Position numbers and translations under genes: made by a program
The notes under the pieces: model-generated
What the model was told of the DNA's origin: nothing
The model's input: only the letters and a program-made list of their open reading frames with translations
Databases searched by the model: none
Shown here: one piece after another, positions 1 through 14,937 of the stretch
How positions within the stretch are numbered: position 1 is the stretch's first letter
Layout: each line of letters begins with the position of its first letter
Virus record (IMG/VR): IMGVR_UViG_3300029288_000056
Coordinates: 96,001 to 160,000 of that record
Strand: one strand, 5' to 3'
Length of the DNA: 64,000 nt
Origin: a virus
Taxonomy: Duplodnaviria > Caudoviricetes

Positions 1-382
1 TTTGAGATAATGTGATGTTGTTTCCAGCTGCGAAGACTATTGCGCCAGTACTGCTGTTTAGAGACTGCACACCCGGTGCGACAGAGCCGGTCATTGTACT
101 TCCGCTTAATCCGAATGACAGGTTATTGGAGTTCGAAAAGACTACCGTTCCACTAAGGATCGTGGACGCACTATCTGCTATTCTCACCCCTGCACCCGTA
201 CCGACTATGGCATCTACGTAAGACTTGTTAGCAGCATCCATGTCACTAACGCATAGATCAACGTTGACGATCCGATGACTGTTAGCATTAATATAGGAGC
301 TTGACGAAGCGTCCGTGTTATATCTAACGACGGCGTCTCCGTCAAACAGATTGTGTAACGCTGATTGCTGCTTATCTAACAT
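1..382 (-). CDS. Tail fibre/adhesin-like protein, N-terminal part (runs off window edge)
   Basis: Not in ORF track. ATG at 382 with GGAG RBS; reads MLDKQQSALHNLFDGD...HRIVNVDLCVSDMDAANKSYVD...GTVVFSNSNNLSFGLSGST...VQSLNSSTGAIVFAAGNNITLSQ, open to position 1. DAANKxYVD neck motif and S/G/N/T-rich beta repeats are typical of fibres. Confidence 0.75.
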   Translation of the reverse strand, partial: MLDKQQSALHNLFDGDAVVRYNTDASSSSYINANSHRIVNVDLCVSDMDAANKSYVDAIVGTGAGVRIADSASTILSGTVVFSNSNNLSFGLSGSTMTGSVAPGVQSLNSSTGAIVFAAGNNITLSQ

Positions 383-1259
383 TAATCTCCGTTATCTGAT
401 AGATCTTGGAAGGATTGTAAATAAAGACCACACCGCCACCATCGTAGGCGTCGATACCTTCATCTATTATTCGTTTTGTATATTCTTGAGGCGACTCACC
501 GAAATGAGAGTCTCTTTGGTCGTATTCGCCGGCTACGTTACCTCTGAACTTCAGTTGAAGCACGGCGTATTTCTCGGTGTTAAATGGTTTTCCCGGGTTA
601 GTGAAATAATTGGTTGCGTTTTTAAGTGTGTGCATACAACTCACCGCGTAGTCGTTTACCCAACGCGGAGCTATCTTTGACAGCTGAAATCCGTTGGCCA
701 GTATCGACTCAACGTTTTCCCTTTTTGTAGTGTGATAAAGGGTCAGCGTTTTTGTTTCAATTTCCGCCGTTAGAAAGTTAAATTTGCTCGCCGCCATATC
801 ATCTAGACGAACGTTACCTTCTGGTCTATAAGGTTTGAGCAGGTCTTCAAGGTTAGCAGTTTCAGAAAGTGCCAACCAAGCCTCTGTAACGACATTCCAA
901 ACAACGCTTTGTATAGTATTAAAAGTGAGACCAGTCGCATCTTCCTTTTCTTTTATGTTATTTACTGTAACATCTACTAACTTGCCGGTATCGTTCCAAC
1001 TAAAAACTAACTGGGATGATTTTGTATTAAACCATTTTCTAATAAAGTCGGTCATAAAATTTTCCCCAGCCGTATTTAAAGCATATCCATTATAGTTACG
1101 CATTACACCGAAGAATAACGGGTCACCAATAAATGAAATAGCATGCATAACTTCAATACCTAAGACTAAATGGATAATTACATTTGTTGGTATATCATTC
1201 CAAGCACTCGCCCGATCACCAAAACTAGCGTTGGTTAAAAACTCTGTAAGTTTGTTCAT
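372..1259 (-). CDS. Tagged two-module protein with C-terminal ADP-ribosyltransferase-like (H-type) domain
   Basis: N-terminal MNKLTEFLTNA tag; internal AASKFNFLTA tag; then LYHTTKRENVESILANGF, resembling the LYHGT...I...GF strand-1 motif of PARP/DarT-like ARTs. Confidence 0.65.
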   Translation of the reverse strand: MNKLTEFLTNASFGDRASAWNDIPTNVIIHLVLGIEVMHAISFIGDPLFFGVMRNYNGYALNTAGENFMTDFIRKWFNTKSSQLVFSWNDTGKLVDVTVNNIKEKEDATGLTFNTIQSVVWNVVTEAWLALSETANLEDLLKPYRPEGNVRLDDMAASKFNFLTAEIETKTLTLYHTTKRENVESILANGFQLSKIAPRWVNDYAVSCMHTLKNATNYFTNPGKPFNTEKYAVLQLKFRGNVAGEYDQRDSHFGESPQEYTKRIIDEGIDAYDGGGVVFIYNPSKIYQITEINVR

Positions 1260-2038
1260 ATCTCCAATTGAGTCCCTTCCTTAACTTCTGTATTAGGAAT
1301 AAATTCAGCTGTGCCTTCGCCCTTATAAGGCTCTGTATGTTGAAAATCTTCCTCTGGTATAAGGTGGTTAATCGCATCCGGAGTTGACTCCCATTCGTCA
1401 GGGTTAAACTTCGCATTAGGATCAATGTTATCAGATTGTATGATCTCTCGAACTAGTTCCTCATCTCCGTCGGCCAAGTCCAATAGGCCTTCGTAGTTAG
1501 AGGCGGCGTCCAATGGGTGTTTAGACGCACTGATGCGTTCGTCTATATCTGATTGAATCTTTGGAACCATTTCATCCCACGCTTTTATACCGACGCCCGT
1601 TAGCTCGTTCTCGATCTGCTTGATGTCTCTAAGATATTCGTGGTACTGATCGTTCAGGCCGGCCTCTTCAATGAGCTTAACAAAGATAGGATCATCGGTG
1701 AATGAGACTCTAACCTTTTGAATATTAGACATTGCCGGGCTTAGGTGGAAGCCGAGGAGGGGAAAGCCGGCTTCGGCCAAGTAGGCTGTAATCGCTTTCA
1801 TAACTGCGTCTTCAAGTTTGTCGGTGTAGTGCAAGAATTCTCCCACACCCTCAGGATCCCAGTCTTCTTGGTCGTCAAAAAGAGGCTCTATATTGTAGGC
1901 CCGCGTAAAGTCGTCGGGTGTATCAATCCAAACCGAATTGATCCGCGCAGCATAGTTTCCGGACTCTAGAAACATCTCTAAGAAACTGAGTGCATCGTTG
2001 TTTATTGATGCGGTTAAAAATTCTGTAAGTTTACTCAT
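1256..2038 (-). CDS. Tagged acidic hypothetical protein
   Basis: MSKLTEFLTA tag, AAGGA RBS, coupled to the next gene. Confidence 0.8.
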   Translation of the reverse strand: MSKLTEFLTASINNDALSFLEMFLESGNYAARINSVWIDTPDDFTRAYNIEPLFDDQEDWDPEGVGEFLHYTDKLEDAVMKAITAYLAEAGFPLLGFHLSPAMSNIQKVRVSFTDDPIFVKLIEEAGLNDQYHEYLRDIKQIENELTGVGIKAWDEMVPKIQSDIDERISASKHPLDAASNYEGLLDLADGDEELVREIIQSDNIDPNAKFNPDEWESTPDAINHLIPEEDFQHTEPYKGEGTAEFIPNTEVKEGTQLEI

Positions 2039-2047
2039 GTTATCCTT

Positions 2048-2674
2048 TTAGGTATTAAAGATATATTCCGCTACCTGTTGAAATACTATATGGTAAGACT
2101 CGTTTAATAAAGCGAGCTCAAAATTACATTGTTTACTTATTCGCTCTATAAACTTTCGATTAGCTTCATAGGCCGAGCTAGTATCGATCTCGTCTGTTTT
2201 TGTTGTATAGCAATACCTCAATGAATCTTCCGGCCAGCTATGCCTATCACCAATTGGGTGAGCCTCTATGTTTGATGCAGGATTTAGACTGTCGTCATAG
2301 AAGCGATCCCATACTTCCCCCGCTTGAAAAGAGGTGTCCCCGTCAACGTCCGACGCTAAGCCGTATCCTTCTGACCCAGCCTCTTGCATTGCAATAATAT
2401 ACATAGGTGGCCCATATCCGTTTCCTCGTGTAAGAGCTAACTCAACTGTCTTAAACTCATCATAACTTTGTTCAACCACCAACATGGCGATTGACCTATA
2501 GTTAATAAAATCCGCCAAACTATCCACATCGTCGAATCTTTCGTCGGTAACTAATAAGTGTGGATCATAAAGGACATAACCTATATCATAATCATTAGGG
2601 CTAAAAGCTGCTAGTGCCAAGCCTTGTATGCTTTTATACGAAGCATCTAACAAAAACGACGTTAGTTTGTTCAT
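2048..2674 (-). CDS. Tagged GNAT-like repeat-family protein
   Basis: MNKLTSFLLDA tag; GYGPPMYIIAMQ...GLASD...TS..A..VWDRF family motif. Confidence 0.7.
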   Translation of the reverse strand: MNKLTSFLLDASYKSIQGLALAAFSPNDYDIGYVLYDPHLLVTDERFDDVDSLADFINYRSIAMLVVEQSYDEFKTVELALTRGNGYGPPMYIIAMQEAGSEGYGLASDVDGDTSFQAGEVWDRFYDDSLNPASNIEAHPIGDRHSWPEDSLRYCYTTKTDEIDTSSAYEANRKFIERISKQCNFELALLNESYHIVFQQVAEYIFNT

Positions 2675-3205
2675 TTATCTCCTATTATAAGTAACTTCGT
2701 ACTTGCCCGGATAGACAATACACTCTTTTTCTAATTCAATTGCATTAAGAATTTTATCTAATTCCGAATCCTCGTATAGTTGCTCTAAAAATTCTTGGTC
2801 GACATCTTCATCAATACTATCCATTAGATATTGAGAGAAGGCATACACATCGAGAGCGTCGGCTTTAGGATATTTTTGAGCGTCTAGCTCTAGCACGTTG
2901 TTCCCAAAGCCCAAACCTTCTATACCGTCTCCATCCTGAGTCCATGAGGTAAACTTAGCAGAACAATCATACAATGTCTTTTGACCGTTTTGCGTGGGGA
3001 TTGGAAAACAATAAGTCGTCAGTTCACCGTCGTCCACTGCTCTGTAGATGTTTGATTCTAAATCATAATGATATTTGCCGGCCCACTTCAACAGAAGATC
3101 GGTTGGCTTATCCTCACCACCTCTAACCCATGAACATAGGTCAACGAGAGCCTCTATAAATACGGAGGCTTTCTCCGCTAGTAAAAACGATGTTAGTTTG
3201 CTCAT
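2675..3205 (-). CDS. Tagged ADP-ribosyltransferase-like protein (R-S-E type)
   Basis: MSKLTSFLLA tag; IYRAV...FTSWT...ELEKECIV matches the R / S-x-[ST] / E-x-E arrangement. Confidence 0.65.
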   Translation of the reverse strand: MSKLTSFLLAEKASVFIEALVDLCSWVRGGEDKPTDLLLKWAGKYHYDLESNIYRAVDDGELTTYCFPIPTQNGQKTLYDCSAKFTSWTQDGDGIEGLGFGNNVLELDAQKYPKADALDVYAFSQYLMDSIDEDVDQEFLEQLYEDSELDKILNAIELEKECIVYPGKYEVTYNRR

Positions 3206-4137
3206 CCTTGATGATCCCTTAAGTAATCTTCTAATAATCTAGAAAGCTTAGGGTCTACGTACTTCTCGTAGTCCACGTGGTTCGGTGTAGTCATCATGTA
3301 GCCCCAATTCCCGCTGCCAACGTTGTATACGAAGTGTACATCTCTAACCTCTACACGCTTAACATAGGTGCCGCTGTCTGCGTACAACCTGTCCCAAACT
3401 GCTGTAGCGGCATCTCGTGTCGCCCCCCTATCGTCACTCGCAACCGGTAGTCCGTATTTGTTTGTAATATATTGGATTATCGCCAAATAAAGCCACGCTC
3501 CATAACCGTGCGGAGCAAAGGCGCTATTAACAAAGTAATAGCCGTCGGCCTTACAGCATTGAATATGGCCGATCTCGTTGTTTACGTTAAAGTCAGTAAT
3601 CTTCATGCTTTTAGGAAACAACGTCATTGTAACGTAGTACTCCGACTCTCCAAGTGCCATCACCATGCCGTCCGGCGGTGTGAGCGCGGCGCTCAGCGGC
3701 CCTAGTAAGAACTCGGTCAGTTTGGAGGCGGCAAATGCAAAGCCTCGCTCCGGTTGTTTGGGGACCAAAGAGAAGTCTTGCGCCATCCCGTCGTTTACAC
3801 TAATGACATCAAAATCGTCGCCTCGCGCCTCTACTAAGCCTTTCATGTCGTACAAGTACCACTTTGCGTTTTCACCCCAAATGATTGTTAGTTGATGGTG
3901 AAGGCGGCCCATTTGAATGGCTTCTTCCAAAAGCATGTCAGGTACGAAGTAGGAGCGTTCTTTCCATACCTTACCCGTATTGTCAGTCCACTGGCCCACC
4001 ATATCGATAAAACCCCAGCCGTTAACCTCAAGATCCTTTTCAAGATCTTTCCAGTTATCAGAAGCGATACAGCAGAACTTTTCACCTGAATTGAAGTGCT
4101 GTAGAATACGGCCTACGGATCCAGCGTTAAGCCTCAT
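3202..4137 (-). CDS. Tagged two-module protein: DUF3293-like domain + GNAT-like repeat
   Basis: MRLNA tag; ERSYFVP...AIQMGRLHHQLTIIW (DUF3293-like); internal AASKLTEFLL tag; GYGAWLY...VASD...TAVWDRL. Confidence 0.65.
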   Translation of the reverse strand: MRLNAGSVGRILQHFNSGEKFCCIASDNWKDLEKDLEVNGWGFIDMVGQWTDNTGKVWKERSYFVPDMLLEEAIQMGRLHHQLTIIWGENAKWYLYDMKGLVEARGDDFDVISVNDGMAQDFSLVPKQPERGFAFAASKLTEFLLGPLSAALTPPDGMVMALGESEYYVTMTLFPKSMKITDFNVNNEIGHIQCCKADGYYFVNSAFAPHGYGAWLYLAIIQYITNKYGLPVASDDRGATRDAATAVWDRLYADSGTYVKRVEVRDVHFVYNVGSGNWGYMMTTPNHVDYEKYVDPKLSRLLEDYLRDHQG

Positions 4138-5720
4138 ACTTCCTCCAATTTAATATCAAGTAAGCTAAATAATTCATCCCAACTATCGGTCGCGTTGGCC
4201 CGCGTGCCACCTAGTTCATGGAAGCGGTTTATCACAAGGTTCTTAAGGGCGGCGTTTTGATCATTCACGTTAACCGTTGCTACATAGCGGTTAGCAAATT
4301 CTCTAACGCTCAACTCCATAGTTTGCAAAAATCCTTTCAGCTGCTCACGGCCTTTCCGATAGCCGCCTAGCGGCTTTAGATCGAGGCCGAGGTTCTCGCA
4401 TATCTCAAACGCGACCGCGTCCGTTAAGAATTCCTCAATCTTGTTGTTCTCCGTTGCGTTCGGGTTTGAGCTCAGAACTCCGTGAACCATTTCGTGAAGG
4501 ATCTCTTGGGGTAGGCTGTTCTCCTTTACACCGATCTCTTGAGTCTCCTCGATGTAGTAACCTTTTACGCGGTTAGTAAGTGTTTCCTCACCGTTCTTTT
4601 TATTGATTGCGTCGCTCTTATCTAACCATTCTTGATAGTTCATCATATCTATACTGGATATCTTCGGCTTGATTCCGCCAAAGTAGTCGGCGATTGCGTT
4701 GATTAGATCCTGAATAGCGGGACAGTTCAAAGGAACAGGCCGCGCATTAAGCAGAAACTCTGTCAACTTGCTGGCCGATTTCCTTTCGGCTTTCCACTGA
4801 TTGTAGGTGTTCTTCGCATTCTCGATCTGATACTTAGTAAAGAACGGAGCCTTCATTGAGTAGGCGTACTTGAGCTGTATATCCACACCATAATCGGGAG
4901 CTGGTACCCAATCATTCCTTGATGAAATAGGAGTGTGTTCAATCCGCGGGTCGTTATAGAAGCGTTGCCAAAGATCTTGCGCGGCGCTTGATGTGTTTCC
5001 TTCACCTTCATCCGACGCTAAGTCTCCTAAGACCTGCATCGCGATAAGGTATGTAAGTGCGCCGTAGCCTCCTTCTGGTCCCCAACCGCCTTCAACAGAA
5101 TAGTAGCCTTCACGCGGGTAAGCCTCAACAACACCTACTCTAGTGTGTAAGTCTGTGTAGAGTTCAAAGATCGTATATCCGTCGGAGCCTTCGTAGATAC
5201 TTAGGCCGACCTCTTCAATCGAGGGCAGGGATGCGTTTAAGGTCGATCTACTCGCGGACACCCCATATTTCCATTCTTCATACTGGCTTTCCGCCATTTC
5301 AATTTCCTGTTCATCAAAAAACGGTGTTCTCATACTATAATAACATCTAAGCCATCGCGGTTGACTTGGATGCCAATCTTTCCTTTTCATTATAGGGGTA
5401 TGCTTAATTCGTGGATCGTCATAAAACTTCTTCCATAACGCTTCTGCACTGGGAGAAGTATTACCTTCCTGTCTATCAGATGCGATCCCTCCACGTAGTT
5501 GCATGGCGAGTAAGTAACAGAGTGCACCGTAACCGTGTTTTCCTTCACTAGTTTCAACAGTACCGTAATCGCCTTCCCCATATACTTCTACTATAGCTAT
5601 TTCTCTCATACTCTTCACGCCAAGCGCCGAATCATAAAGAGAGAAACGATAGTATTCTTGATCTGAATACCAGTCTAATCCTAAACCGTCTAATGATGCG
5701 AGGCTGGCGTTTAGTCTCAT
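4134..5720 (-). CDS. Tagged three-module protein: two GNAT-like repeats + HExxH metallopeptidase
   Basis: MRLNA, SASRSTLNA and SASKLTEFLLNA tags delimit the modules; LHEMVHG...EEFLTD zincin motif. Confidence 0.7.
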   Translation of the reverse strand: MRLNASLASLDGLGLDWYSDQEYYRFSLYDSALGVKSMREIAIVEVYGEGDYGTVETSEGKHGYGALCYLLAMQLRGGIASDRQEGNTSPSAEALWKKFYDDPRIKHTPIMKRKDWHPSQPRWLRCYYSMRTPFFDEQEIEMAESQYEEWKYGVSASRSTLNASLPSIEEVGLSIYEGSDGYTIFELYTDLHTRVGVVEAYPREGYYSVEGGWGPEGGYGALTYLIAMQVLGDLASDEGEGNTSSAAQDLWQRFYNDPRIEHTPISSRNDWVPAPDYGVDIQLKYAYSMKAPFFTKYQIENAKNTYNQWKAERKSASKLTEFLLNARPVPLNCPAIQDLINAIADYFGGIKPKISSIDMMNYQEWLDKSDAINKKNGEETLTNRVKGYYIEETQEIGVKENSLPQEILHEMVHGVLSSNPNATENNKIEEFLTDAVAFEICENLGLDLKPLGGYRKGREQLKGFLQTMELSVREFANRYVATVNVNDQNAALKNLVINRFHELGGTRANATDSWDELFSLLDIKLEEV

Positions 5721-6211
5721 CTTAACACTCTCTTTTTCATTCTGTCAATTGCATCATCTATATCTGATTGGGGAATAATAGGTTGTTTTAAACTATAAGC
5801 ATATTGTGTGGCTTCTATATAAGAATCATCATCGTTATAGTTGGCAGATTCCTCTAGCCAAGTTGGTATATCTCTGTCAGGTATCATGGTGTGTTCAATG
5901 CGAGGATCGTTATAGAACTTATTCCAAAGATCTTGTGCGGCTAAACTAGTTGTAGCATCGTTGTCTGACGCGATGGCCCCACAAATTTGCATTGCGATTA
6001 AATACAAGAGGGCGCCATAACCGTGTATACCTTCACTATTTTCAACAGTCCAATAGCCATCATGGTGTTTCAATCTCATGTCAGCAAAAGAATGAAGAGC
6101 TTCGTTGCGAAGGCTCATGTTTTTATGATCGTTACGATCATAAACATACAACAACAGTCCGTCCAACGAGGCCAATCCTGCATTAAGCAGAAATGAAGTT
6201 AGTCTATTCAA
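5717..6211 (-). CDS. Tagged GNAT-like repeat-family protein
   Basis: MNRLTSFLLNA tag; GYGALLYLIAMQ..IASD..TS..AQDLWNKF. Confidence 0.7.
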   Translation of the reverse strand: MNRLTSFLLNAGLASLDGLLLYVYDRNDHKNMSLRNEALHSFADMRLKHHDGYWTVENSEGIHGYGALLYLIAMQICGAIASDNDATTSLAAQDLWNKFYNDPRIEHTMIPDRDIPTWLEESANYNDDDSYIEATQYAYSLKQPIIPQSDIDDAIDRMKKRVLR

Positions 6212-7142
6212 AGCCCCACTCCTTTGCCCTTTGAACCGCGTCGGCGATTTGTTGTTCGGTGAAGACCGGAGACTTCAGTGTGTAATAGTATTTGTAAACA
6301 TCCGACGTACCATTCCGATCTATGGGCTTCTTGTGAATTCGCGGATCATTAATCATGTGCCTCCAAAGTTCAACAGCGTCACGTGATAAGACCCCACCGG
6401 GCGATAACCCACCAAGCATTTGCATCGCGATTAGGTAACAGAGCGCTCCGTAACCATGTTCACCCTCTGCCCTCTCAACTTCCCAATAGCCAAATTCGTC
6501 TGAAGCAATTATATAGGCGGTATCATGCAAACGGTCAACGTTCTTATTTTTGTAAATCTTAAACATCCCTCTATCCATCACCAAGGCAACCTCGTCGATA
6601 GACGCAATACCGGCACTTAAAAGGAAGTTAGTAAGCTTGCTCGCGGCTTTTGTCCAGCCGTTCTTCCAATTAATAAATGTACTCGTAGCTTCGTTGATTT
6701 GATCTATGGTGAAAAATGGTACTTTCATTTCGTATCTATATCTTAAATGTTCAACTTTCCAGCGCTTCCTCTCTGGTATAAGTATCTTATCGATACGCGG
6801 ATCGTCGTAGAAGCGCTTCCAAAGAGTAGATGCGTTATCGGAAGAGTCTCTATCTTTGTCTGACGCTATACTTCCAACGCACTGCATCGCGATCAGATAA
6901 CAGAGTGCCCCGTAACCGTGATCTCCATATCCACCTTCGACGGTCCAATATTCTTCACCCTCATTGTCTTCACCCTCGTTGTGTGCGCTCACACTCGCTC
7001 TATTCATTGATCTCATAGCCTCTTCTTTTGATGTAAACAACATAAATATCCTAGAGTATATACTGCCCGGATCAGCATATAGCCCCACGTCTTCGATTGA
7101 GGCTATACCAGCATTGAGTAGGAATGTCGTTAAATTATTCAC
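6204..7142 (-). CDS. Tagged protein with two GNAT-like repeats
   Basis: Start moved to GTG at 7142 (GGAG RBS, gives MNNLTTFLLNA tag); internal AASKLTNFLLSA tag; two GYGALCYLIAMQ motifs. Confidence 0.7.
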   Translation of the reverse strand: MNNLTTFLLNAGIASIEDVGLYADPGSIYSRIFMLFTSKEEAMRSMNRASVSAHNEGEDNEGEEYWTVEGGYGDHGYGALCYLIAMQCVGSIASDKDRDSSDNASTLWKRFYDDPRIDKILIPERKRWKVEHLRYRYEMKVPFFTIDQINEATSTFINWKNGWTKAASKLTNFLLSAGIASIDEVALVMDRGMFKIYKNKNVDRLHDTAYIIASDEFGYWEVERAEGEHGYGALCYLIAMQMLGGLSPGGVLSRDAVELWRHMINDPRIHKKPIDRNGTSDVYKYYYTLKSPVFTEQQIADAVQRAKEWGFE

Positions 7143-7629
7143 TCCACTCCTTATACCTTGCGATTGCGTCATCAATCTGTTGTTGCGTGAAGAACGGTGT
7201 CTTCATCCAATAACGGTATTTAACCGCTCGGGTGTGATGATCCATACCTCTTGACCAACCTACCCGTCTCTCTTCGATTGGTTCATGCGCAATCCGTGGA
7301 TCATTGTAGAACCGTTTCCAAAGGTCTTGCGCTGAACCTGACGTGGTTGCGTCTTCATCTGAGGCAAGTGAACCGCAGATCTGCATCGCAATTAGATAGC
7401 AGAGAGCCCCATAGCCGCCTTCAGGGCCCCAACCATCTTCTACGGTCCAGTAATTATCCTGAAGACGAACACCCGTCATGCCATTTGGATCTCTAGTTTT
7501 TACTCGTCTCTGAGTAGTGTATATTTCTATATATTTGTAGTTAGTTTCGTTCCCGTCGCCGTTTTTCACGGCTACACTCTCAATAGATGGTAGTCCTGCG
7601 TTCAAAAGGAACTCGGTTAATACGCTCAT
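7135..7629 (-). CDS. Tagged GNAT-like repeat-family protein
   Basis: MSVLTEFLLNA tag; GYGALCYLIAMQ..LASD..TS..AQDLWKRF. Confidence 0.7.
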   Translation of the reverse strand: MSVLTEFLLNAGLPSIESVAVKNGDGNETNYKYIEIYTTQRRVKTRDPNGMTGVRLQDNYWTVEDGWGPEGGYGALCYLIAMQICGSLASDEDATTSGSAQDLWKRFYNDPRIAHEPIEERRVGWSRGMDHHTRAVKYRYWMKTPFFTQQQIDDAIARYKEWSE

Positions 7630-7637
7630 GTACCCTC

Positions 7638-8072
7638 CTAGTGTAGTCCGGTGCCATCACATATACTGCAGTCTTCCGACTCGTCGTCGGTGAGCCCGGA
7701 TCCGAAACATGCTGGGCAAAGTCTAGCTAAAGTGTGTTTCTCACTCGCCAATGTGTCTCCCCATTTATGAAATGTATCGTTCATGTCCATCTGTACAAGA
7801 TCGCCATCGTCGGTTTGTCTCCAAACCTTGGCCGTCCTGTTACCGGAGCGCATGATACAATCCCAAATCGCATCCTCAACTGCTGGATAGCTTTCTTCAA
7901 TTGCTAGAATGACGTATTCCTGTGTCTCAGGGTTCCAAGTTATTACCTGTTTACCATCTACAAACACGTCGTTCCCGTCGTACACATAGTCGCCCGGTTC
8001 TGGGACTGGTTCTGCTAATAGGTCTGACGTCTCGTCAGTATAAGCAGCGTTTAAAAAGTCTGTAAGTCTCAT
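7638..8072 (-). CDS. Tagged acidic protein with C-terminal DnaJ-type zinc finger
   Basis: MRLTDFLNA tag; CPACFGSG...CSICDGTG. Confidence 0.75.
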   Translation of the reverse strand: MRLTDFLNAAYTDETSDLLAEPVPEPGDYVYDGNDVFVDGKQVITWNPETQEYVILAIEESYPAVEDAIWDCIMRSGNRTAKVWRQTDDGDLVQMDMNDTFHKWGDTLASEKHTLARLCPACFGSGLTDDESEDCSICDGTGLH

Positions 8073-8090
8073 AATATTCCTCCTTTTGTG

Positions 8091-8891
8091 TTAAATTCCT
8101 GTGCGCCAAAGACTGTCGTCAGCGTTCCAAGGAGATCCGTAAGGGTCCTCTATGTAGTCGTCATCGTCAAAAACTCTAATAGTTGTATCAACCGGTTTCG
8201 TCGGATCACCTGTCGGTAGATCGGATATCCTACCGCGGGCAAAACTACCCATCGGTCTTACAAACTCATCAGCCGTCCCATTCTGTCGCGCTTCATATAA
8301 GACTTGCGCGCTCTTTATTTCGTCTAACGGAATGAGTGGATGAAGCGCAGTTAGTTTATAGAGCATAGGATCGTCTTTGGCTAGCTCAAGTCTTTGAGCA
8401 TCCTTAGCTCTTTCTTGAATAAGTTCCCGTTTAACTTCGGGGCTTTTGAACATTCTCAAGAATGCGTTCTTTGCAGGAAAAGCGAGTGCGTTGTCGCTGA
8501 TGTCCATTGCTATTCCACCCTTATTCTGATAGAGCGTCAGTGCGACCCTAATTACGATGTCCACGTTTCCCGTGGCCCAGCCGATAATGAAGTGGTCCCC
8601 TTCTCGCGCTACTGCGATACCATCCTCTATTCTGCCTGAGCCGGCAGTTAGTAAGATGTACTCACCGATTCCAAAGTCTTTAAAGTGTAGGGCGAGTTCA
8701 CCCCAAGTACCGAGCCCCTCACCTTTTGTTACTGGTGTTGACGGAGGTAGAGCTAGTGCGCCTGTTGGTTGTATCTTATAATCAGGAAACTTTGCGGCCG
8801 TTAGAAACTCGGTCAGTAGGGACGGCTTTACTTCGCTGTACAACTCCGCCGGTATGACGGATTTCCTTGCTACGTATTCTAAACTTCTCAT
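8091..8891 (-). CDS. Tagged protein with degenerate GNAT-like repeat
   Basis: SLLTEFLTAA tag near N-terminus; GGIAMD...AKNAFLRMFKSPEV aligns loosely with the family. Confidence 0.6.
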   Translation of the reverse strand: MRSLEYVARKSVIPAELYSEVKPSLLTEFLTAAKFPDYKIQPTGALALPPSTPVTKGEGLGTWGELALHFKDFGIGEYILLTAGSGRIEDGIAVAREGDHFIIGWATGNVDIVIRVALTLYQNKGGIAMDISDNALAFPAKNAFLRMFKSPEVKRELIQERAKDAQRLELAKDDPMLYKLTALHPLIPLDEIKSAQVLYEARQNGTADEFVRPMGSFARGRISDLPTGDPTKPVDTTIRVFDDDDYIEDPYGSPWNADDSLWRTGI

Positions 8892-8899
8892 AATACTCC

Positions 8900-9562
8900 T
8901 TAATGATAAAAAAAGTTCCGCGTTGCTGAACCAAATTTAACTATTATTTCACTCTCGGTATACCACTGTTTCAAGTAGTCAACGACCTGTTGGTGTAAGG
9001 CCTTCTCTGCCGAAACGTCTATTTCTGGTCTTTTGACCTTATACGCAACACTCAACCAAGGGCCTCCATCAATATAGCCGTCCCCGCCGCATCGTTCGCA
9101 ATCTTCTTCGTCTCCGTCACAATCAGGACAAACCGTTTGTGGTGCGTCATATCTTTCTTCTCTTATTATATTTGAGTTAGGGTCTTGGCTATCTATAAGG
9201 AATCTGCGCCAAACTTCTGATGCTTCATCTGATGTTCTACCTGTTATATCAGAGGCTAACCCCTTCCCTCTCGCGGTACAATCTTGCATTGCCACAATAT
9301 AAAGGGTAGGTCCGTAACCTTGCTCAGCATAAGAGTATTCTATTGTATCCTCTTGTCTGTCCTCTTGATTGTCTGAATAAACAATAAGCATCGCTATCCC
9401 ATTGTTCTGAAGGATAGGCTCAAGATTTGCATGAGCCTTAAAAGCAGAATCGTAAGTGCCCGCCAAAATTGTGTCGGGATCGTACACAAAATAGAAGAAC
9501 TCCTCTCCACCGTGGTAGGTGAATAGGGCGAGTCCTGTTATATCGCGTCGGCCTGCTTGCAT
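8900..9562 (-). CDS. GNAT-like repeat-family protein with inserted zinc finger
   Basis: MQA short tag; GYGPTLYIVAMQ...GLASD; CPDCDG...CERCGGDG insertion. Confidence 0.7.
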   Translation of the reverse strand: MQAGRRDITGLALFTYHGGEEFFYFVYDPDTILAGTYDSAFKAHANLEPILQNNGIAMLIVYSDNQEDRQEDTIEYSYAEQGYGPTLYIVAMQDCTARGKGLASDITGRTSDEASEVWRRFLIDSQDPNSNIIREERYDAPQTVCPDCDGDEEDCERCGGDGYIDGGPWLSVAYKVKRPEIDVSAEKALHQQVVDYLKQWYTESEIIVKFGSATRNFFYH

Positions 9563-10168
9563 TTATCCGCCAGTTGAAAAGAATTGGTTCATTGCGTCTA
9601 ATAAAGCGCCTCTTATTTCGTCTTCGTCAAACCATTTCTTCAAATGAACGAAGACTTGTTCATTAAGAGTAGCTTCTGCGTCGACCTCAATGGTTGGGGT
9701 CTTGATCTTGTAATAGTGGTACTGCGGCTGTTCACTGTAAGGGTCTATAGTACCCCTACCGTCACAGTTGTCTCGATCAAAAGCCGTTATATTAGAGGTT
9801 GGGTCTTCACTGTCTTCAAGAAAACGGTACCAAACTCTCATAGCTTCACCTGAGGTCTGTCCTCTCTCGTCTGAGGCTAGGCCCTTACCCCTCGCCGTCG
9901 AGTCTTGCATTGCGAGGATATACATGGTCGGTCCGTAACCTTCTTTTGAGCGCGACAGCTTTATGGAATCGTAATTTCCACGATCAGTTGTGATTAGCAT
10001 ACCGATTCCGGCATGCATAAATGTGTTGCGCAAATCATTCCTAGAAAGACCGTAGAAGTTCTCACCAAAAAGGGAGGCGGATTCATAAGCATAATAGTAA
10101 TAGTAACCGCCCGTTGCGTAGTAGAAGTAGGCGAAACCCTTTATCTCTTGGCGTACCGCGTTTAACAT
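9563..10168 (-). CDS. GNAT-like repeat-family protein
   Basis: MLNA short tag; GYGPTMYILAMQ...GLASD..TS..A..VWYRF. Confidence 0.7.
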   Translation of the reverse strand: MLNAVRQEIKGFAYFYYATGGYYYYYAYESASLFGENFYGLSRNDLRNTFMHAGIGMLITTDRGNYDSIKLSRSKEGYGPTMYILAMQDSTARGKGLASDERGQTSGEAMRVWYRFLEDSEDPTSNITAFDRDNCDGRGTIDPYSEQPQYHYYKIKTPTIEVDAEATLNEQVFVHLKKWFDEDEIRGALLDAMNQFFSTGG

Positions 10169-10713
10169 TAATAGAATCTCTCCGTCACATCATTAAACGT
10201 ATCTGTTATCTCTTCAAGTGTAAACTGTTGACGTAGAAATTCCACTACTTTATTGTTATTTTTAATCTCAGTAGATACATCAACAATTTGTCTAGACACC
10301 ATAAATGCAGCCGATGCCGATGGGGCTTTAATTATACCAGAACCAGCCTTTTGACTATCTCTTTCAAAATGATCCCAAACTGATTGAGCTTCTTCCGACG
10401 TTTCTCCGTCGTCATCAGAGGTAAGCCCAACCCCTCGTTTAGTGGCTTCTTGCATAGCAACGATATATAGAGTGGGCCCATAACCCTCTACCTCAGATCT
10501 TGCCCACTCTACAGACTCGTAGCCACCATGATCTTCTACACCTAACATTGCGCATCCAACTTCACTAAGTGCATCATAAAGGGTAGATGTGTCACCAATA
10601 TCCTCAAGATTTAAATTTAATATTGGGTCTGGGTCGTATATATAATACCAAAAGTCATAGGTTTCTCCTATAAAAAGAGCCATACCCCTTATACTTCTTC
10701 TAGCTGCTTGCAT
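10168..10713 (-). CDS. GNAT-like repeat-family protein
   Basis: MQA short tag; GYGPTLYIVAMQ...GLTSD..TS..AQSVWDHF. Confidence 0.7.
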   Translation of the reverse strand: MQAARRSIRGMALFIGETYDFWYYIYDPDPILNLNLEDIGDTSTLYDALSEVGCAMLGVEDHGGYESVEWARSEVEGYGPTLYIVAMQEATKRGVGLTSDDDGETSEEAQSVWDHFERDSQKAGSGIIKAPSASAAFMVSRQIVDVSTEIKNNNKVVEFLRQQFTLEEITDTFNDVTERFY

Positions 10714-10714
10714 A

Positions 10715-11332
10715 TTACTCCTTTAAAAAATTACTCAAAGATGCTACCCTTCTTGGGCCACTGTAACTACGGCTAAACATTATATCCGCGAGAGACCACA
10801 AGAGATCCTCGTAGTTTAAGCTGGTACGTATAATGTAAGGCCCGTCTGTACCGTGGCAATTGGATATGTCGGTATTACCTTTCGCAGTCTGGTGGTTTGC
10901 GTAAGCTTGCGCGGTGTCAACCAGTTGGCGGTCGGTTTTAAACACGTAGTTAGCGCTCACAAAGACATTCTCTCTTCTTATATCCCTTTCCTTTGTGATA
11001 CCAGAATTAGGGTCGTTTGAGATTTCGTAGAACTTGTCCCAAACCCTCACCGCGGAAGGTGACGGTTGGCCGTCAGATTCGATACCCTCTGGGCTTTCTT
11101 GCATTGCAATCATATACATCGTAGGTCCATAGCCTTCAGCGGCGACAGGACCGTGGATATTGTTGTCTTCCACTTCAATCTTCCCAAAAACCGGCCGTTT
11201 GATGTGAGACCTGAAGTCTCGCGCGTTGATGATGTCTTGGATGATTGTGTGATCGTACAATACATACAAAGATCCTGACGAAAAGAACGGTCGCTTACAC
11301 AGGGCGAGATTAGATATATTGGTTTGTAACAT
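10715..11332 (-). CDS. GNAT-like repeat-family protein with C-terminal tag
   Basis: GYGPTMYMIAMQ..GIESD..SPSAVRVWDKF; ends in VASLSNFLKE. Confidence 0.7.
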   Translation of the reverse strand: MLQTNISNLALCKRPFFSSGSLYVLYDHTIIQDIINARDFRSHIKRPVFGKIEVEDNNIHGPVAAEGYGPTMYMIAMQESPEGIESDGQPSPSAVRVWDKFYEISNDPNSGITKERDIRRENVFVSANYVFKTDRQLVDTAQAYANHQTAKGNTDISNCHGTDGPYIIRTSLNYEDLLWSLADIMFSRSYSGPRRVASLSNFLKE

Positions 11333-11975
11333 TTCTCCACCATTTTACAAATTCGTCTCTTGATTGCCAATGGTTCGGTCGGTTAACCAACCCAACCCCA
11401 TCGGGTATATCCTCTAGTCTATCCATCAACCCTTTGTCGGCAAAGTGAACCGATTTGCCGCGGCCAACTGATAAAGAGAGATACAAATCGTCGTTGAAGA
11501 TCGCTTCACTGCGATACATCGGATTCTGTGCAATGAGACCAAGACTGACCTTGGCGAGCAGGTCCTTAGAAAGCATTACAAAGCGACCTTTGATTATCGG
11601 CACAAAACCCCACGCATCTAGTGCGGTGGAGTAAGGTTTGTCTCCAATAGAAAGGTTGCGGCCAAAGGCGCCAGTAAGAACGTCAGGGTGTCGTTGGTGC
11701 ACTTCAAACGCGTCCTTAAGAAAGTCGTCGTCCTTAGGTAAGAGGTCGTCATCCATAAATACGATAGTCTGGTACTTGGAGAAGGGCGCTAAAACGATTC
11801 GCGCTAGACAACCCATATTCCAAGTTGAGTAGACGGTCTGATCTCCTTCAACCAAGTCGTCCTGTCGGTTATTGATGACTATTATCTCATTCTCTATAGT
11901 TTGCTGTCGCAGTTTGTCAATCAGTTTGCGCAACTGTGCGGGCCGACTATAGTTGAGAAGTATTATCGATATCAT
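11310..11975 (-). CDS. GT-A fold glycosyltransferase (GT2/GT64-like)
   Basis: ISIILLNYSR, EIIVINN, FMDDD (DxD) and NDDLYLS motifs. Confidence 0.85.
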   Translation of the reverse strand: MISIILLNYSRPAQLRKLIDKLRQQTIENEIIVINNRQDDLVEGDQTVYSTWNMGCLARIVLAPFSKYQTIVFMDDDLLPKDDDFLKDAFEVHQRHPDVLTGAFGRNLSIGDKPYSTALDAWGFVPIIKGRFVMLSKDLLAKVSLGLIAQNPMYRSEAIFNDDLYLSLSVGRGKSVHFADKGLMDRLEDIPDGVGLVNRPNHWQSRDEFVKWWRNVTNQYI

Positions 11976-14937
11976 TTAATAAGAACCTCGTTAGTTTACT
12001 TGCTGCAATTGTCTCAGGAAGACCGTACTTCGTTCTAAAGTCTCGACAGGATCGTATTGCACTGTCAGATTGCATTTGTCCCATAAGCTCTAGAATCTTA
12101 GGAGTGCCGGCGAGGCGGATAACCTCAGGAATCTTCAGTTGATCTTCTTTTGTAGAATTAGGCTGTAAAGCCCACTTAGCGAATTGGTAGAATGTAAACC
12201 GGTTATAAACTATCAGCTTTGCCAAGGTCTGTGCGTTTAAATGGGAATAGATTATATATACTTTAGTGTCACCCATTGAACTTACACCGCCCGTATTCCA
12301 AATTCTGTCTGCGATATAGGGGGCGCTCCAATCTCGTACTGTCCAGATTTGCGGATTCATTTCTCCCGCTCTGATCCAGTCGTCTATACTAAGCGACTCC
12401 CACGGCAATGAGACTAGAGTCTCAGGATTGTTCAGGGCGATCTCTCGGGCAATTCGCTGACCGGTACTACCAATGTCTGTGCCCGGTGGTATATCCTTCA
12501 TGTACTCTTCCGCAATCGGCAAGAACAACGCTCTCGCGTCCGAATTGTACTCGAGAATGTAGAAGAATTGGTACCAACGATCGGGTTTCTCCATCAACTT
12601 CGGTTTAACTCGCGCAAAGAACAGATTCCAGTCTATACCAAAGGCCTTAAGGATGTTAACCCAACTAGAACTCTCCAACCTATCCATCACGTCATTATAT
12701 ATTCGTTCATCTACCGTGCCTATCATCCCGATATGAGTGATGACGAACAGATCTTTTATATCCATGGACAATTGTGCCCAATTTGCGGTCGAAAGTACAG
12801 TCTTCAACTTAGTCACCCTTGCGTCATCTGGGGCTATAGGGCCACTGGTGTTAACGAGTATATTAAGTATTGTAGAAGGACTGAAGGTGTCTGCAATTCT
12901 CGGATTCAATGCCGTTACTCGTGCTAACCAGCTTGGGTCAAGCGCGCCTTCTGGAATAGTAACGCCCGCCAACATAAGGTTGGCATAACTTGCGCCCGAA
13001 CGGCCCGCCATCATATATAGGATGTCTTGCGGAACCGTCTTGAGTATGTCGATCGTGGTTTGGGGTAACGTAGCGAAAGTCTCGGGTATAACCATTGTGA
13101 ATAGTATCTTAATCCAATTAGGGTACTGAGTAATGACGTCTTTAACGTCCTGACCATCGTACTCTACCTCGGTTCGTCTGTCACCCCTCGACACACTCCT
13201 AAATGCGTCCGCGTAGTTAGCGAGGACGGGGTGAGTCTTCATAAGTGTGAGGTACTTCTTAAGCAAGTAGTACTTGGCGGGTGTAACCGTCTTACCCTCG
13301 AGCTTCGGAATAAGGTACTGACCCAACTTACGACCGCTGACTACGAGGGTGAAGATTTGATCACCGGTCAACTCAACGCCCTGTTGAGTTAATGAGGCCA
13401 TGAAGGTCGTAAACTGTGTCTTATTCTTAATCGCATTGTCGGCTGCGTATAGGAAGTCGTCCATTGTACCAGCCTGTTGAATACTGCTCATTACGCGATC
13501 CATCATTTGATACTTAAGGGCTATGCTTAAGACGTAAGAGGAAGGTATCCTTCCGTTAGAAACCAAGTAGTCGAAGAGCTCTTTGGCTAAGTCGGCAATA
13601 TCGGGTAAGGAGAACAGTTGGTCAAAGGTTCGGTTCCAATCGCTGATTCGGTTACGACCAATGGTTTCAAAGGCCGCGTTCTTATCTAAGAGGTTGGCCT
13701 GTACTAGGTATAAGATGTCCTTAGGCTCACTGACCAATATACCCAAGTAGTTGCGTAGCTCGCTATTCATACCTATCAATCTTGTTATACGATCAACCGT
13801 CATATTACTAATGATGAATGGGTATCCTGAGTTCTGAGCAAAGTCGATCATTGAAGGTTTACGTGCTAATAACGTATCTACTAGATCATCCTTACGATTT
13901 TGAATAGCCCATCTTACCAAATCTCTCTGTGCCCTCTCCTGCATTGAGTCAAAATAATTGATATCCATTCCTACAAGTAACCCTAGATCGTCTTTTGATA
14001 GGTTGTTATAATCGATTTGATCCTTAAAATAAGGATTCCCGCTAGTTAATTGCTGCACCATATAAGTCTGTGGAATCGTATAGTTTCCTACACCTTTTCG
14101 GTTAAGAATCTCCCATAGGAAGGCGCCGCGCTCTGGGGTAGAATATAAGAAAGAACCAATCGGTGTAGACGGATTCATATTGTCTATGCACAAGGGCATC
14201 CATTTCCTCATATCCGCGGTGATTAGTTCGTTCCACATACCCGGTCCTAACAGCTTTATGATCTCAGGGGTTGGTTCAATACTTCCATCTATTAGACCGG
14301 CGAGAGTCGCAGGGTCGATGTATGTAACGGTGTAACTCGTATTCCCCAAGGTCCAATGCGCTCTACGTTCAACATTACTATAGGCACGACTGAAGAGAGC
14401 CCCAGCCGCGTCCTTAAGTTTGTCGTTGGTTATATCGGGGTGTTCCGCTTGAAGGCTTTGCCCAAGAGCGAGGGCGGCGTCCATCGGTTCAATGATGGTA
14501 GTAATGTAGTAGACGTAGTCTTTAGGGTTGTCAGCCTGCATTGTGTCGTCGGTAACGCGTTGAGTCGCTTTAACGGGGGATCCGGGCTGCCGAGAGTCCA
14601 AGAGGAATCTCGCATAGACCGGTTCAGCGTCACCGGAGGTTGAACCAGAAGCATCTGATGCAATCCCCTTCCCGTCTTGCCACGCCCTTTGAGCACCACA
14701 GACATAGGCCGTTGGCCCGATTTCGAGCCGTTTGTTTCCGGCCGAGTTCTGCACTGTATAGTAGTCGCCGCGTTCGTTGTACGACAACCGTACGTACCCG
14801 ACTGCATCTATACCGAAACGCTCCTCAGCGTTGTACCTCCATATAATAACGTAGATACTTCCAGCTAGACTCTGTCCAATGAACGACAGGGCAAATTCGT
14901 TACCTAGCGATCTTCTCGCTGCACTTAAACGATTCAT
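11947..14937 (-). CDS. Large tagged protein: N-terminal GNAT-like repeat + long helical region
   Basis: MNRLSA tag; IGPTAY...GIASD..TSGDAEPVYARF; C-terminal AASKLTRFLLN tag; GGAGG RBS. Confidence 0.75.
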   Translation of the reverse strand: MNRLSAARRSLGNEFALSFIGQSLAGSIYVIIWRYNAEERFGIDAVGYVRLSYNERGDYYTVQNSAGNKRLEIGPTAYVCGAQRAWQDGKGIASDASGSTSGDAEPVYARFLLDSRQPGSPVKATQRVTDDTMQADNPKDYVYYITTIIEPMDAALALGQSLQAEHPDITNDKLKDAAGALFSRAYSNVERRAHWTLGNTSYTVTYIDPATLAGLIDGSIEPTPEIIKLLGPGMWNELITADMRKWMPLCIDNMNPSTPIGSFLYSTPERGAFLWEILNRKGVGNYTIPQTYMVQQLTSGNPYFKDQIDYNNLSKDDLGLLVGMDINYFDSMQERAQRDLVRWAIQNRKDDLVDTLLARKPSMIDFAQNSGYPFIISNMTVDRITRLIGMNSELRNYLGILVSEPKDILYLVQANLLDKNAAFETIGRNRISDWNRTFDQLFSLPDIADLAKELFDYLVSNGRIPSSYVLSIALKYQMMDRVMSSIQQAGTMDDFLYAADNAIKNKTQFTTFMASLTQQGVELTGDQIFTLVVSGRKLGQYLIPKLEGKTVTPAKYYLLKKYLTLMKTHPVLANYADAFRSVSRGDRRTEVEYDGQDVKDVITQYPNWIKILFTMVIPETFATLPQTTIDILKTVPQDILYMMAGRSGASYANLMLAGVTIPEGALDPSWLARVTALNPRIADTFSPSTILNILVNTSGPIAPDDARVTKLKTVLSTANWAQLSMDIKDLFVITHIGMIGTVDERIYNDVMDRLESSSWVNILKAFGIDWNLFFARVKPKLMEKPDRWYQFFYILEYNSDARALFLPIAEEYMKDIPPGTDIGSTGQRIAREIALNNPETLVSLPWESLSIDDWIRAGEMNPQIWTVRDWSAPYIADRIWNTGGVSSMGDTKVYIIYSHLNAQTLAKLIVYNRFTFYQFAKWALQPNSTKEDQLKIPEVIRLAGTPKILELMGQMQSDSAIRSCRDFRTKYGLPETIAASKLTRFLLNDIDNTSQL

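What the first reader, a model, noticed from the sequence alone, without database searches (positions are those of the whole stretch)
765..12007. The same tag recurs inside and at the ends of proteins, exactly at domain boundaries: tag-punctuated polyproteins
Seen: internal copies are AASKFNFLTA (~765-794, just before the ART domain), AASKLTEFLLGPLSA (~3688-3732, between DUF3293-like and GNAT-like), SASRSTLNA (~5232-5258), SASKLTEFLLNA (~4744-4779, before the HExxH domain) and AASKLTNFLLSA (~6613-6648). C-terminal copies are VASLSNFLKE (~10718-10748) and AASKLTRFLLN (~11972-12007). In every non-N-terminal copy the initiator Met is replaced by Ala-Ser, which adds a second Ala|small-residue site. 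Every gene with an internal or C-terminal full tag except 372 and 6204 has only a truncated or no N-terminal tag. Inference: the KLTxFL core is a position-independent targeting element flanked by protease sites, so multidomain products are packaged as one chain and cut into free single-domain effectors.
Basis: partly seen in the sequence, partly recalled or inferred. Interest (0 to 1): 0.82.

Follow-up and report, generated by a model that had tools for sequence, protein, structure and literature searches.

The report
Movable address tag joining phage cargo domains
An uncultured 297-kb phage puts one short peptide (K-L-T-x-F-L-L-x-A) at the start, at the joints between domains, or at the end of dozens of unrelated proteins; it most likely loads them into the virus head and marks where a head protease cuts multi-domain chains apart, but neither loading nor cutting has been tested.

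Summary
Observation confirmed. All seven listed copies lie at the stated coordinates (±1 nt), on the minus strand. The 297-kb genome holds about 50 copies: 31 N-terminal, 12 internal, 7 C-terminal, plus two decayed internal copies in the window. In the 63-111 kb block, 35 copies match the tag pattern against 0.7 in shuffles.

Shown:
- Internal tags align column for column with the N-terminal tags of single-domain paralogues.
- Five module families occur both free and fused, joined at the tag.
- AlphaFold2 places the tags in coil or short helices between folded domains.
- Selection acts on the peptide, not the DNA.
- Ala precedes 18 of 19 non-N-terminal tags. Ala follows 34 of 43 N-terminal or internal tags and 0 of 7 C-terminal ones.
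- The commonest cargo is a GNAT-like domain with about 770 metagenomic relatives. Those carry T4-like leaders ending Φ-x-Glu, also before internal domains.

Inferred: this is a T4-CTS-like address that works at any position, with cuts after Ala by a candidate prohead protease.

First reading: partly supported. The architecture holds; cleavage and packaging are untested. New variant of a known kind. This scan already noted the same tags in neighbouring windows of this genome and tag-punctuated cargo polyproteins in other uncultured phages. Interest 0.6.

The parts
372..1259 (-). 295-aa two-module protein. Full N-terminal tag MNKLTEFLTNA (1227-1259). Variant internal tag AASKFNFLTA (765-794) between two modules that have no paralogues.
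   Evidence: the C-terminal module has only a weak PARP hit (E 0.08)
3202..4137 (-). 311-aa two-module protein. Cut-down N-terminal tag MRLNA (4123-4137), a weakly DUF3293-like module, internal tag AASKLTEFLLGPLSA (3688-3732), then a GNAT-like module.
   Evidence: AlphaFold2: the tag is an isolated helix at 137-145 with pLDDT 44-58; the GNAT-like domain from residue 158 has pLDDT above 89.
4134..5720 (-). 528-aa three-module protein. MRLNA start (5706-5720), GNAT-like module A, decayed tag SASRSTLNA (5232-5258), GNAT-like module B, full tag SASKLTEFLLNA (4743-4778), then an HExxH-containing helical module.
   Evidence: AlphaFold2: tag 1 lies in a coil (153-167, pLDDT about 60); tag 2 is the exposed end of helix 296-325 and is followed by a coil.
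6204..7139 (-). 311-aa tandem of two GNAT-like modules. N-terminal tag fMet-NNLTTFLLNA from the GTG at 7139 (7107-7139) and internal tag AASKLTNFLLSA (6612-6647).
   Evidence: (a public gene call of 312 aa begins MNNLTT)
10715..11332 (-). 205-aa GNAT-like protein with no N-terminal tag and a C-terminal tag VASLSNFLKE-stop (10718-10747). The AAGGAG ribosome site and ATG of the next gene follow directly.
11947..14937 (-). 996-aa protein with an N-terminal GNAT-like module and a C-terminal tag AASKLTRFLLN (11974-12006). The start codon of the next, untagged gene (11310-11975) lies inside the tag's 3' end.
5717..6211 (-). 164-aa single GNAT-like module with N-terminal tag (TTG start) MNRLTSFLLNA. 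It is the split counterpart of the fused modules.
7135..7629 (-). 164-aa single GNAT-like module with N-terminal tag MSVLTEFLLNA. It is the split counterpart of the fused modules.
1256..3205 (-). Three single-module genes (1256-2038, 2048-2674, 2675-3205), each with a full N-terminal tag M[SN]KLT[ES]FL..
7638..10713 (-). Five further array genes. 7638-8072 starts MRLTDFLNA. 8091-8891 carries a tag 22 residues in, with no Ala before it. 8900-9562, 9563-10168 and 10168-10713 are GNAT-like with only the stubs MQA or MLNA.

Best explanation
The peptide [M or A]-[S/N]-K-L-T-x-F-L-(L)-x-A is this phage's counterpart of the phage T4 capsid-targeting sequence (CTS). It is a short amphipathic helix. 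Its invariant Leu4, Phe7 and Leu8 would dock the protein onto the prohead core. Its alanines would be the cut sites of the head-maturation protease.

Unlike the T4 signal, it is used at any position in the chain. Tandem cargo genes that each carried the tag have repeatedly fused in frame or split again. A chain can therefore be [domain]-A|S-KLTxFLL-xA|-[domain], or [domain]-A|S-KLTxFLL-stop.

One tag is enough to carry the whole chain into the prohead. Cutting after Ala, on whichever side faces a domain, then frees single-domain proteins that leave the capsid with the DNA.

Shown here: the architecture, the fusion/fission history, selection at the peptide level, tags lying outside the folded cores, the side-specific Ala pattern, and the match to T4-like leaders in homologues. 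Inferred: packaging, cleavage, and the identity of the protease.
For: 1. Abundance and place. About 50 copies, all but one on one strand in a 75-kb gene array that runs straight into the terminase, portal, candidate protease, scaffold and capsid genes. Counts against shuffles: 35 vs 0.67, and 18 vs 0.04 for the extended internal form.

2. Domain boundaries. Internal tags of ORFs 6204, 4134 and 3202 align with the N-terminal tags of the single-domain paralogues 5717, 7135 and 2048. Split and fused neighbours differ only by reading frame and by the presence of a start codon and ribosome site.

3. Module shuffling at the tag.
- The HExxH-type module is once free with an N-terminal tag and five times behind an internal tag, after three different upstream families.
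- The YYHGT module is four times free and twice internal.
- Another family carries the tag at its N-terminus, its C-terminus or both.

4. Structure. In both AlphaFold2 models the tags are coil or short helices of low to medium confidence, between or at the edge of confident domains.

5. Peptide-level selection. All six Leu codons are used. Third-position identity among identical residues is 40%. The Ala-Ser pair is also encoded variously.

6. Ala pattern. Ala is upstream of 18/19 internal or C-terminal tags against 3/31 N-terminal tags (p 1e-9). Ala is downstream of 34/43 N-terminal or internal tags against 0/7 C-terminal tags (p 1e-4).

7. Register. MGKLTQFLNA and MKTYQEFIAE have their conserved positions at 4, 7, 8 and 10. 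In T4, residues 4 and 7 carry targeting and 8 and 10 carry processing (PMC9026906, read).

8. Homologues. The GNAT-like cargo family has 770 remote relatives. Φ-x-Glu lies just upstream of 64/86 N-terminal and 13/15 internal domains, against an 11% background. One IMG/VR phage has seven tandem copies, each with a leader ending in LLDEAA.

9. Protease. A 215-aa gene between portal and scaffold hits the PHROG family 'head maturation protease' at E 1e-3. Its ESM Atlas neighbours include the S80/S77, S78, DUF2213 and Mu-like prohead proteases. Capsid proteases of herpesviruses cut after Ala in YLQA-T and VQA-S (PMC4498786). [quoted passage not shown]
Against: - There is no experimental datum: no virion proteome, no cleavage assay, no host.
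- The protease assignment is weak. Pfam finds nothing, and the Pfam models for T4 gp21 and gp23 found nothing, although their controls also stayed silent.
- The residue three places before the upstream Ala|Ser site is hydrophobic in only about half of the copies, so that site fits a Φ-x-A rule poorly.
- Several internal tags sit in paralogous contexts (eight proteins share one upstream family), so the 19 copies are perhaps 9 to 11 independent events.
- The absence of Ala after C-terminal tags is confounded by the overlapping start signals of the next gene.
- In the 528-aa model the second tag continues a domain helix rather than forming a free loop.
- Some array members carry only stubs (MQA, MLNA) or no tag at all.
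- No close relative of the phage could be found to show recent fusion or fission between strains.
Confidence: 0.5

Rival explanations
1. Uncut docking label. The tag is a position-independent peptide that binds the prohead core or shell and carries whole multi-domain proteins inside, as encapsulin cargo-loading peptides do. The flanking alanines would be helix caps or spacers, not cut sites, and the chains would stay intact.
For: Position independence and roughly one tag per chain. AlphaFold2 predicts the tag as a helix. The upstream x-A|S site lacks a consistent hydrophobic residue three places before the cut. Another follow-up in this scan judged a comparable tag to be uncut (unchecked).
Against: The side-specific Ala pattern. 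The stubs MRLNA, MLNA and MQA keep only the putative cut site. Homologues in other phages have Φ-x-Glu, the proven cut motif of T4-type proteases, at the same spot. The tag's register matches both the targeting and the processing positions of the T4 CTS.
Confidence: 0.22
2. A different address or a different protease. The tag directs proteins to some machine other than the capsid, such as a chaperone, export apparatus or compartment. Alternatively it is cut after injection or by another enzyme, for example the six HExxH-type modules of the array acting like the metallopeptidase domains of polyvalent proteins.
For: Packaging is only inferred. HExxH modules always lie directly behind a tag. Iyer et al. 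2017 propose metallopeptidase-driven release of domains from virion-delivered polyvalent proteins (PMC5512222).
Against: The array adjoins the head genes on the same strand. The tag is close to the T4 CTS in its register. Pfam MPTase-PolyVal is absent from the genome, in a search whose controls did respond, and no Pfam metallopeptidase matches the module. Cutting after Ala before Ser or Thr is known for capsid proteases.
Confidence: 0.12
3. Functionless scars. Internal and C-terminal copies are leftovers of recent in-frame fusions, frameshifts and insertions between tagged cassette genes and no longer do anything.
For: The fusion/fission mechanism is evident. One internal copy is visibly decaying (SASRSTLNA), and one in-frame junction outside the window still keeps its Met. 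The truncated C-terminal copies look like breakpoints.
Against: Met to Ala needs two base changes, yet Ala is found in 18/19 copies behind at least nine unrelated upstream modules, and with varied codons. The core is as well kept as in N-terminal copies while synonymous sites have drifted. Chains with such copies usually have no other full tag. The same arrangement recurs with Φ-x-Glu in other phages.
Confidence: 0.08
4. DNA- or RNA-level element. The repeat would be a recombination site, a translation signal or an internal start, not a peptide signal.
For: Conserved sequences at cassette borders could promote shuffling. N-terminal copies lie next to ribosome sites.
Against: All six Leu codons are used and third-position identity is 40%. 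Internal copies have no start codon and no ribosome site. find-by-DNA searches (megablast) found nothing.
Confidence: 0.02

Closest known systems
Phage T4 capsid-targeting sequence (CTS, MKTYQEFIAE) of IPI-III and Alt, removed by the prohead protease gp21 after L/I-x-E
   Same: A ten-residue leader shared by unrelated, fast-evolving proteins. Conserved hydrophobic residues at positions 4, 7 and 8 and a small conserved end residue at 10/11. The genes lie next to the head genes. Homologues of the main cargo family in other phages carry T4-like leaders ending in Glu.
   Different: The end residue is Ala, not Glu. About 50 carriers instead of a handful. The tag also occurs inside and at the end of chains, with a second Ala|Ser site on its upstream side. 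The head module is not T4-like by Pfam. Nothing has been tested.
Multi-site head-protein processing in giant phages phiKZ, 201phi2-1 and SPN3US (gp175, gp245)
   Same: Many head and ejection proteins are cut at a short motif, and some at several sites (PMC10052503; PMC9026906).
   Different: Those cuts follow Glu. Apart from the protease itself they remove N-terminal propeptides. No repeated address peptide between domains has been described there.
Polyvalent proteins of phages and conjugative elements (Iyer, Burroughs, Anand, de Souza, Aravind 2017, PMC5512222)
   Same: Several effector-type domains in one virion-delivered chain, with shuffled architectures and proposed proteolytic release of domains.
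   Different: Chains here are short (2-3 modules). They are punctuated by a conserved tag that also heads free-standing genes. The hallmark MPTase-PolyVal domain is absent.
Herpesvirus assemblin cleavage sites ((V/L)-x-A followed by S/T)
   Same: A capsid-maturation protease cutting after Ala before Ser or Thr, for example YLQA-T and VQA-S (PMC4498786). Compare LNA|S/G and xA|S here.
   Different: A different virus group. The substrates are the scaffold and the protease itself, not cargo. The link here is by analogy only.
Encapsulin cargo-loading peptides
   Same: A short peptide that suffices to load unrelated cargo into an HK97-fold shell and can sit at either end of the cargo (from general knowledge, not tested here).
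   Different: They are not cleaved, there is no sequence likeness, and they are not viral.

Membership tests
T4-type CTS-bearing internal head proteins | Short shared leader on otherwise unrelated proteins encoded near the head genes | tested here: met
   31 N-terminal copies on at least 20 unrelated modules; the array adjoins the terminase and portal genes
T4-type CTS-bearing internal head proteins | Targeting residues at positions 4 and 7; processing residues at 8 and 10, with Glu at the cut (L/I-x-E) | tested here: not met
   Positions 4, 7 and 8 match (Leu, Phe, Leu), but the end residue is Ala, not Glu (T4 rule from PMC9026906)
T4-type CTS-bearing internal head proteins | A gp21-family prohead protease (Pfam PF03420) and a gp23-type capsid protein | tested here: inconclusive
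   No hit for PF03420 or PF07068, but the control genomes gave no hit either. The 215-aa candidate has a PHROG 'head maturation protease' hit at E 1e-3 and ESM Atlas leads to S80/S77/S78.
T4-type CTS-bearing internal head proteins | Proteins are found in the capsid with the leader removed | not testable with these tools
Polyvalent proteins (Iyer et al. 2017) | Two or more effector-type domains in one chain of a phage with a portal-terminase packaging system | tested here: met
   2-3 modules per chain, with families recombined; portal and terminase present
Polyvalent proteins (Iyer et al. 2017) | Characteristic domains such as MPTase-PolyVal (PF18818) | tested here: not met
   No match at E up to 1, with responding controls; no Pfam hit for the HExxH module
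GNAT acetyltransferase fold (the main cargo domain) | Fold likeness to solved GNAT enzymes | tested here: inconclusive
   Top Foldseek hits are RimI, KKT23, SpeG and GCN5 with probability 0.93-0.99 but E 0.02-0.24, using the whole 528-aa model as query. No Pfam hit.
Assemblin-type cut sites | Cleavage after Ala before Ser/Thr by an assemblin-fold serine protease | not testable with these tools
   The sequence pattern is compatible.

The most novel reading that the evidence does not exclude
The tag is a two-sided 'address plus double cut' cassette border. One 12-residue peptide would carry both neighbours into the prohead and be excised at both of its ends. Any two cargo genes could then be fused, split or swapped without losing delivery, much as polymorphic toxins swap tips at a conserved junction, but here for capsid cargo. 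The switch from Glu to Ala at the cut would mark a retuned prohead protease in a jumbo phage whose head genes are not T4-like. The 770-member GNAT-like family with such leaders would be a widespread, unrecognised class of injected phage proteins.
Probability: 0.3. Interest if true: 0.78.

Novelty: new variant of a known kind. Interest (0 to 1): 0.6.

Why it matters
Capsid-delivered proteins are a phage's first weapons in the cell. So far the loading signal is understood only for T4 and a few giant phages, and there it is always an N-terminal leader ending in Glu.

A signal that works at any position, and that also acts as the joint of cleavable multi-domain chains, would explain how a phage can build and reshuffle an arsenal of about 50 injected proteins. 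It would give a simple rule for predicting virion cargo in metagenomic phages. It would offer a compact tag for loading foreign proteins into capsids from either end.

The finding also makes a concrete prediction about protease specificity: cutting after Ala instead of Glu. This can be tested with two recombinant proteins.

Tried and rejected
- **Repeat or recombination site at DNA level:** rejected. Synonymous sites are scrambled.
- **Internal translation starts:** rejected. Fused junctions have no start codon and no ribosome site. The one exception to note is an ATG two codons before the tag in ORF 372, which has no ribosome site.
- **Close relatives that could show strain-level fusion or fission:** none found.
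  - megablast of the first 12 kb of the window and two tblastn searches (one window protein, one foreign homologue) against 50,697 phage records found nothing.
  - The word-based protein search returned only the phage's own protein.
  - Scans of viral and metagenome contigs with window proteins or the terminase found nothing.
  - The alignment was too diverse for a locus scan.
- **Pfam and PHROGs on the modules:** almost empty.
- **ESM Atlas on the 'SYYDW' upstream family:** nothing usable.


Full report
**Setting.** The window is bases 96,001-160,000 of a 297,328-bp IMG/VR virus record rated 94% complete. All genes of the finding lie on the minus strand. No phage in GenBank resembles the first 12 kb of the window at DNA level. 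Downstream on the same strand lie a large terminase, a portal, an HNH gene, a 215-aa gene, two scaffold-like genes, a 349-aa capsid-like gene and a tape-measure gene. The array therefore runs straight into the head module.

**Observation.** All seven have Ala-Ser where N-terminal copies have Met-Ser or Met-Asn.
- Across the genome I count 31 N-terminal, 12 internal and 7 C-terminal copies, plus the two decayed or variant internal copies of the window. All but one lie between 33 and 108 kb.
- In the 59 ORFs of the 63-111 kb block the tag pattern occurs 35 times against 0.67 in shuffles. The extended internal form occurs 18 times against 0.04.

**Peptide, not DNA.**
- All six Leu codons are used at the two invariant Leu positions.
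- Third-position identity among identical residues is 40%.
- The Ala-Ser pair is written with several different codons.
- Fused junctions have no start codon and no ribosome site. Split junctions have ATG, GTG or TTG behind AGGAG.

**Tags mark module borders.** A domain with the signature GYGxxxYLIAMQ...ASD..TS..A..W.RF occurs 13 times in the window and 20 times in the array.
- In its alignment, the internal tags of ORFs 6204, 4134 and 3202 fall in the same columns as the N-terminal tags of the single-domain paralogues 5717, 7135 and 2048.
- There is a graded series of cut-down tags: MRLNA, MLNA, MQA.
- Neighbouring copies are either split or fused. In split pairs the upstream gene ends K-E-W-..-stop in another frame, and its AAGGAG serves as the ribosome site for the next gene. 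In fused pairs the two are in the same frame.

I cut all array proteins at their tags and clustered the pieces. This gave five families that occur in more than one state:
- The GNAT-like domain is free, upstream of a tag, or downstream of a tag.
- An HExxH-containing module is once free with an N-terminal tag and five times behind an internal tag, after three different upstream families.
- A 'YYHGT' module is four times free and twice internal.
- A fourth family carries the tag at its N-terminus, its C-terminus or both.
- An eight-member 'SYYDW' family is always first in its chain and always followed by a tag.

**Structure.** Two AlphaFold2 models were built with alignments of paralogues and remote homologues.
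- *The 528-aa protein.* The first junction (SASRSTLNA, residues 155-163) lies in a coil with pLDDT about 60, between two domains with pLDDT above 90. The second tag (315-326) is the far end of the last helix of module B (296-325). Confidence falls from 81 to 62 along it, and a coil follows.
- *The 311-aa protein.* The tag is an isolated helix (137-145) plus a short turn, with pLDDT 44-58. It lies just before a GNAT-like domain modelled at pLDDT above 89.
- Neither tag lies inside a confidently folded core.
- Foldseek places the repeated domain nearest to GNAT acetyltransferases, with probability 0.93-0.99 but E only 0.02-0.24. 'GNAT-like' is a reasonable lead, not a proof.

**Side-specific alanines.**
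- Ala lies 2-4 residues before the tag's first Leu in 18 of 19 internal or C-terminal copies, against 3 of 31 N-terminal ones (Fisher p 1e-9).
- Ala lies within four residues after F-L in 34 of 43 N-terminal or internal copies, and in 0 of 7 C-terminal ones (p 1e-4).
- Sites therefore occur where a domain would need to be freed.
- Two cautions apply. Some copies share ancestry, so there are about 9 to 11 independent contexts. The tails of C-terminal tags overlap the start signals of the next gene, which could by itself explain the missing Ala.

**Link to known capsid targeting.** In T4 the first ten residues of IPIII (MKTYQEFIAE, sequence from general knowledge) suffice for head incorporation. 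Residues 4 and 7 carry targeting, and residues 8 and 10 carry processing. gp21 cuts after L/I-x-E (PMC9026906). The short form of the present tag (for example MGKLTQFLNA) has its invariant residues at exactly 4, 7 and 8 and ends at 10, but with Ala.

A profile of the GNAT-like domain finds 770 unnamed relatives among 1.8 billion representative proteins.
- The single-domain relatives begin with amphipathic leaders such as MKTFREIVLNE-AA or MKELREYVRLAIAE-AA.
- Φ-x-Glu lies just before the first strand in 64 of 86 N-terminal domains and in 13 of 15 internal domains. The background in random windows is 11%. The Ala form there is at background level.
- One 119-kb IMG/VR phage has seven tandem copies, each with a leader ending ...LLDEAA. 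Other loci show different shared leaders on neighbouring unrelated genes.

So the same domain family is preceded, at N-termini and at internal joints, by the proven cut motif of T4-type proteases in other phages, and by Φ-x-Ala in this one.

**Protease.** The 215-aa gene between portal and scaffold has a weak PHROG match to 'head maturation protease' (E 1e-3). Its ESM Atlas neighbours include several prohead-protease families. Pfam and PDB sequence searches give nothing. Cutting after Ala before Ser or Thr has a precedent in herpesvirus assemblin (YLQA-T, VQA-S; PMC4498786). [quoted passage not shown]

**Comparison with the literature.**
- In SPN3US all mapped cuts except the protease's own remove N-terminal propeptides (PMC10052503).
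- T4 Alt is also trimmed at its C-terminus.
- Polyvalent proteins are multi-domain virion-delivered effectors with proposed metallopeptidase-driven release (PMC5512222). Their hallmark domain is absent here.
- Two full-text searches found no description of a capsid-targeting peptide used internally or C-terminally.

**Earlier notes of this scan.** Unchecked notes report the same tags from neighbouring windows of this genome, and tag-punctuated cargo polyproteins with Glu-type sites in several other uncultured phages. I used these as leads only. The Ala pattern and the T4 register were re-derived here.

**Verdict.** The mechanistic part, meaning loading as one chain and cutting into single domains by the prohead protease, is the best available explanation (about 0.5). 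The main rival is an uncut docking label (about 0.2). Nothing has been tested at the bench.

Noticed in passing
genome 46133, 46943 and 50168 (about 46-50 kb before the window start), minus strand: The phage's second tag (MKYFKN) also occurs away from N-termini. It appears in frame inside a 523-aa ORF (..GETMKYFKNAS.., Met kept) and at two C-termini (..CMKYFNVD-stop, ..SKYKYFNVLRS-stop).
   Followed up: partly
genome 67-86 kb (10-29 kb before the window start), minus strand: An eight-member paralogue family (starts such as MIFLRSDRDPIPDKQSYYDW) is always the first module of its chain, never has an N-terminal tag and is always followed by a tag (internal in six members, C-terminal in two). Its function is unknown; Pfam and the ESM Atlas gave nothing.
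   Followed up: partly
loci L009 (6132-10630), L011, L013, L016; proteins P0014-P0150: The GNAT-like cargo domain has about 770 unnamed metagenomic relatives with T4-CTS-like leaders ending in Glu. L009 has seven tandem copies. L013 and L016 show another shared leader (MKITxRQLxxLIxE) on neighbouring small genes. None matches cultured phages or PHROGs.
   Followed up: partly
genome 17742 (capsid-like gene) and 76728 (NUDIX fusion protein): The capsid-like protein and a NUDIX-plus-tag-plus-YYHGT protein share the start MEQL-x-x-EFI, found nowhere else in the genome. The NUDIX protein also has a run of seven Arg right after it.
   Followed up: no
window 8091-8891, minus strand: In this 266-aa protein the tag (LLTEFLTAA) lies 22 residues from the start, is not preceded by Ala, and has no alternative start codon nearby. 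It is an odd case that fits none of the three classes.
   Followed up: no
genome 63775-64776 (about 31 kb before the window start), minus strand: An in-frame junction that still keeps its Met (..VRKMSKLNTFLNAAT..) and has no stop before it. This may be a fusion in progress, or two genes read in one frame.
   Followed up: no
window 2-382 (continues before the window, genome 93101-96382), minus strand: A 1093-aa untagged protein that looks on reading like a fibre protein (not tested) sits in the middle of the cargo array.
   Followed up: no
window 11310-11975, minus strand: An untagged 221-aa gene starts at an ATG inside the C-terminal tag of the 996-aa protein. It interrupts the run of GNAT-like genes and looks like an insertion.
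   Followed up: no
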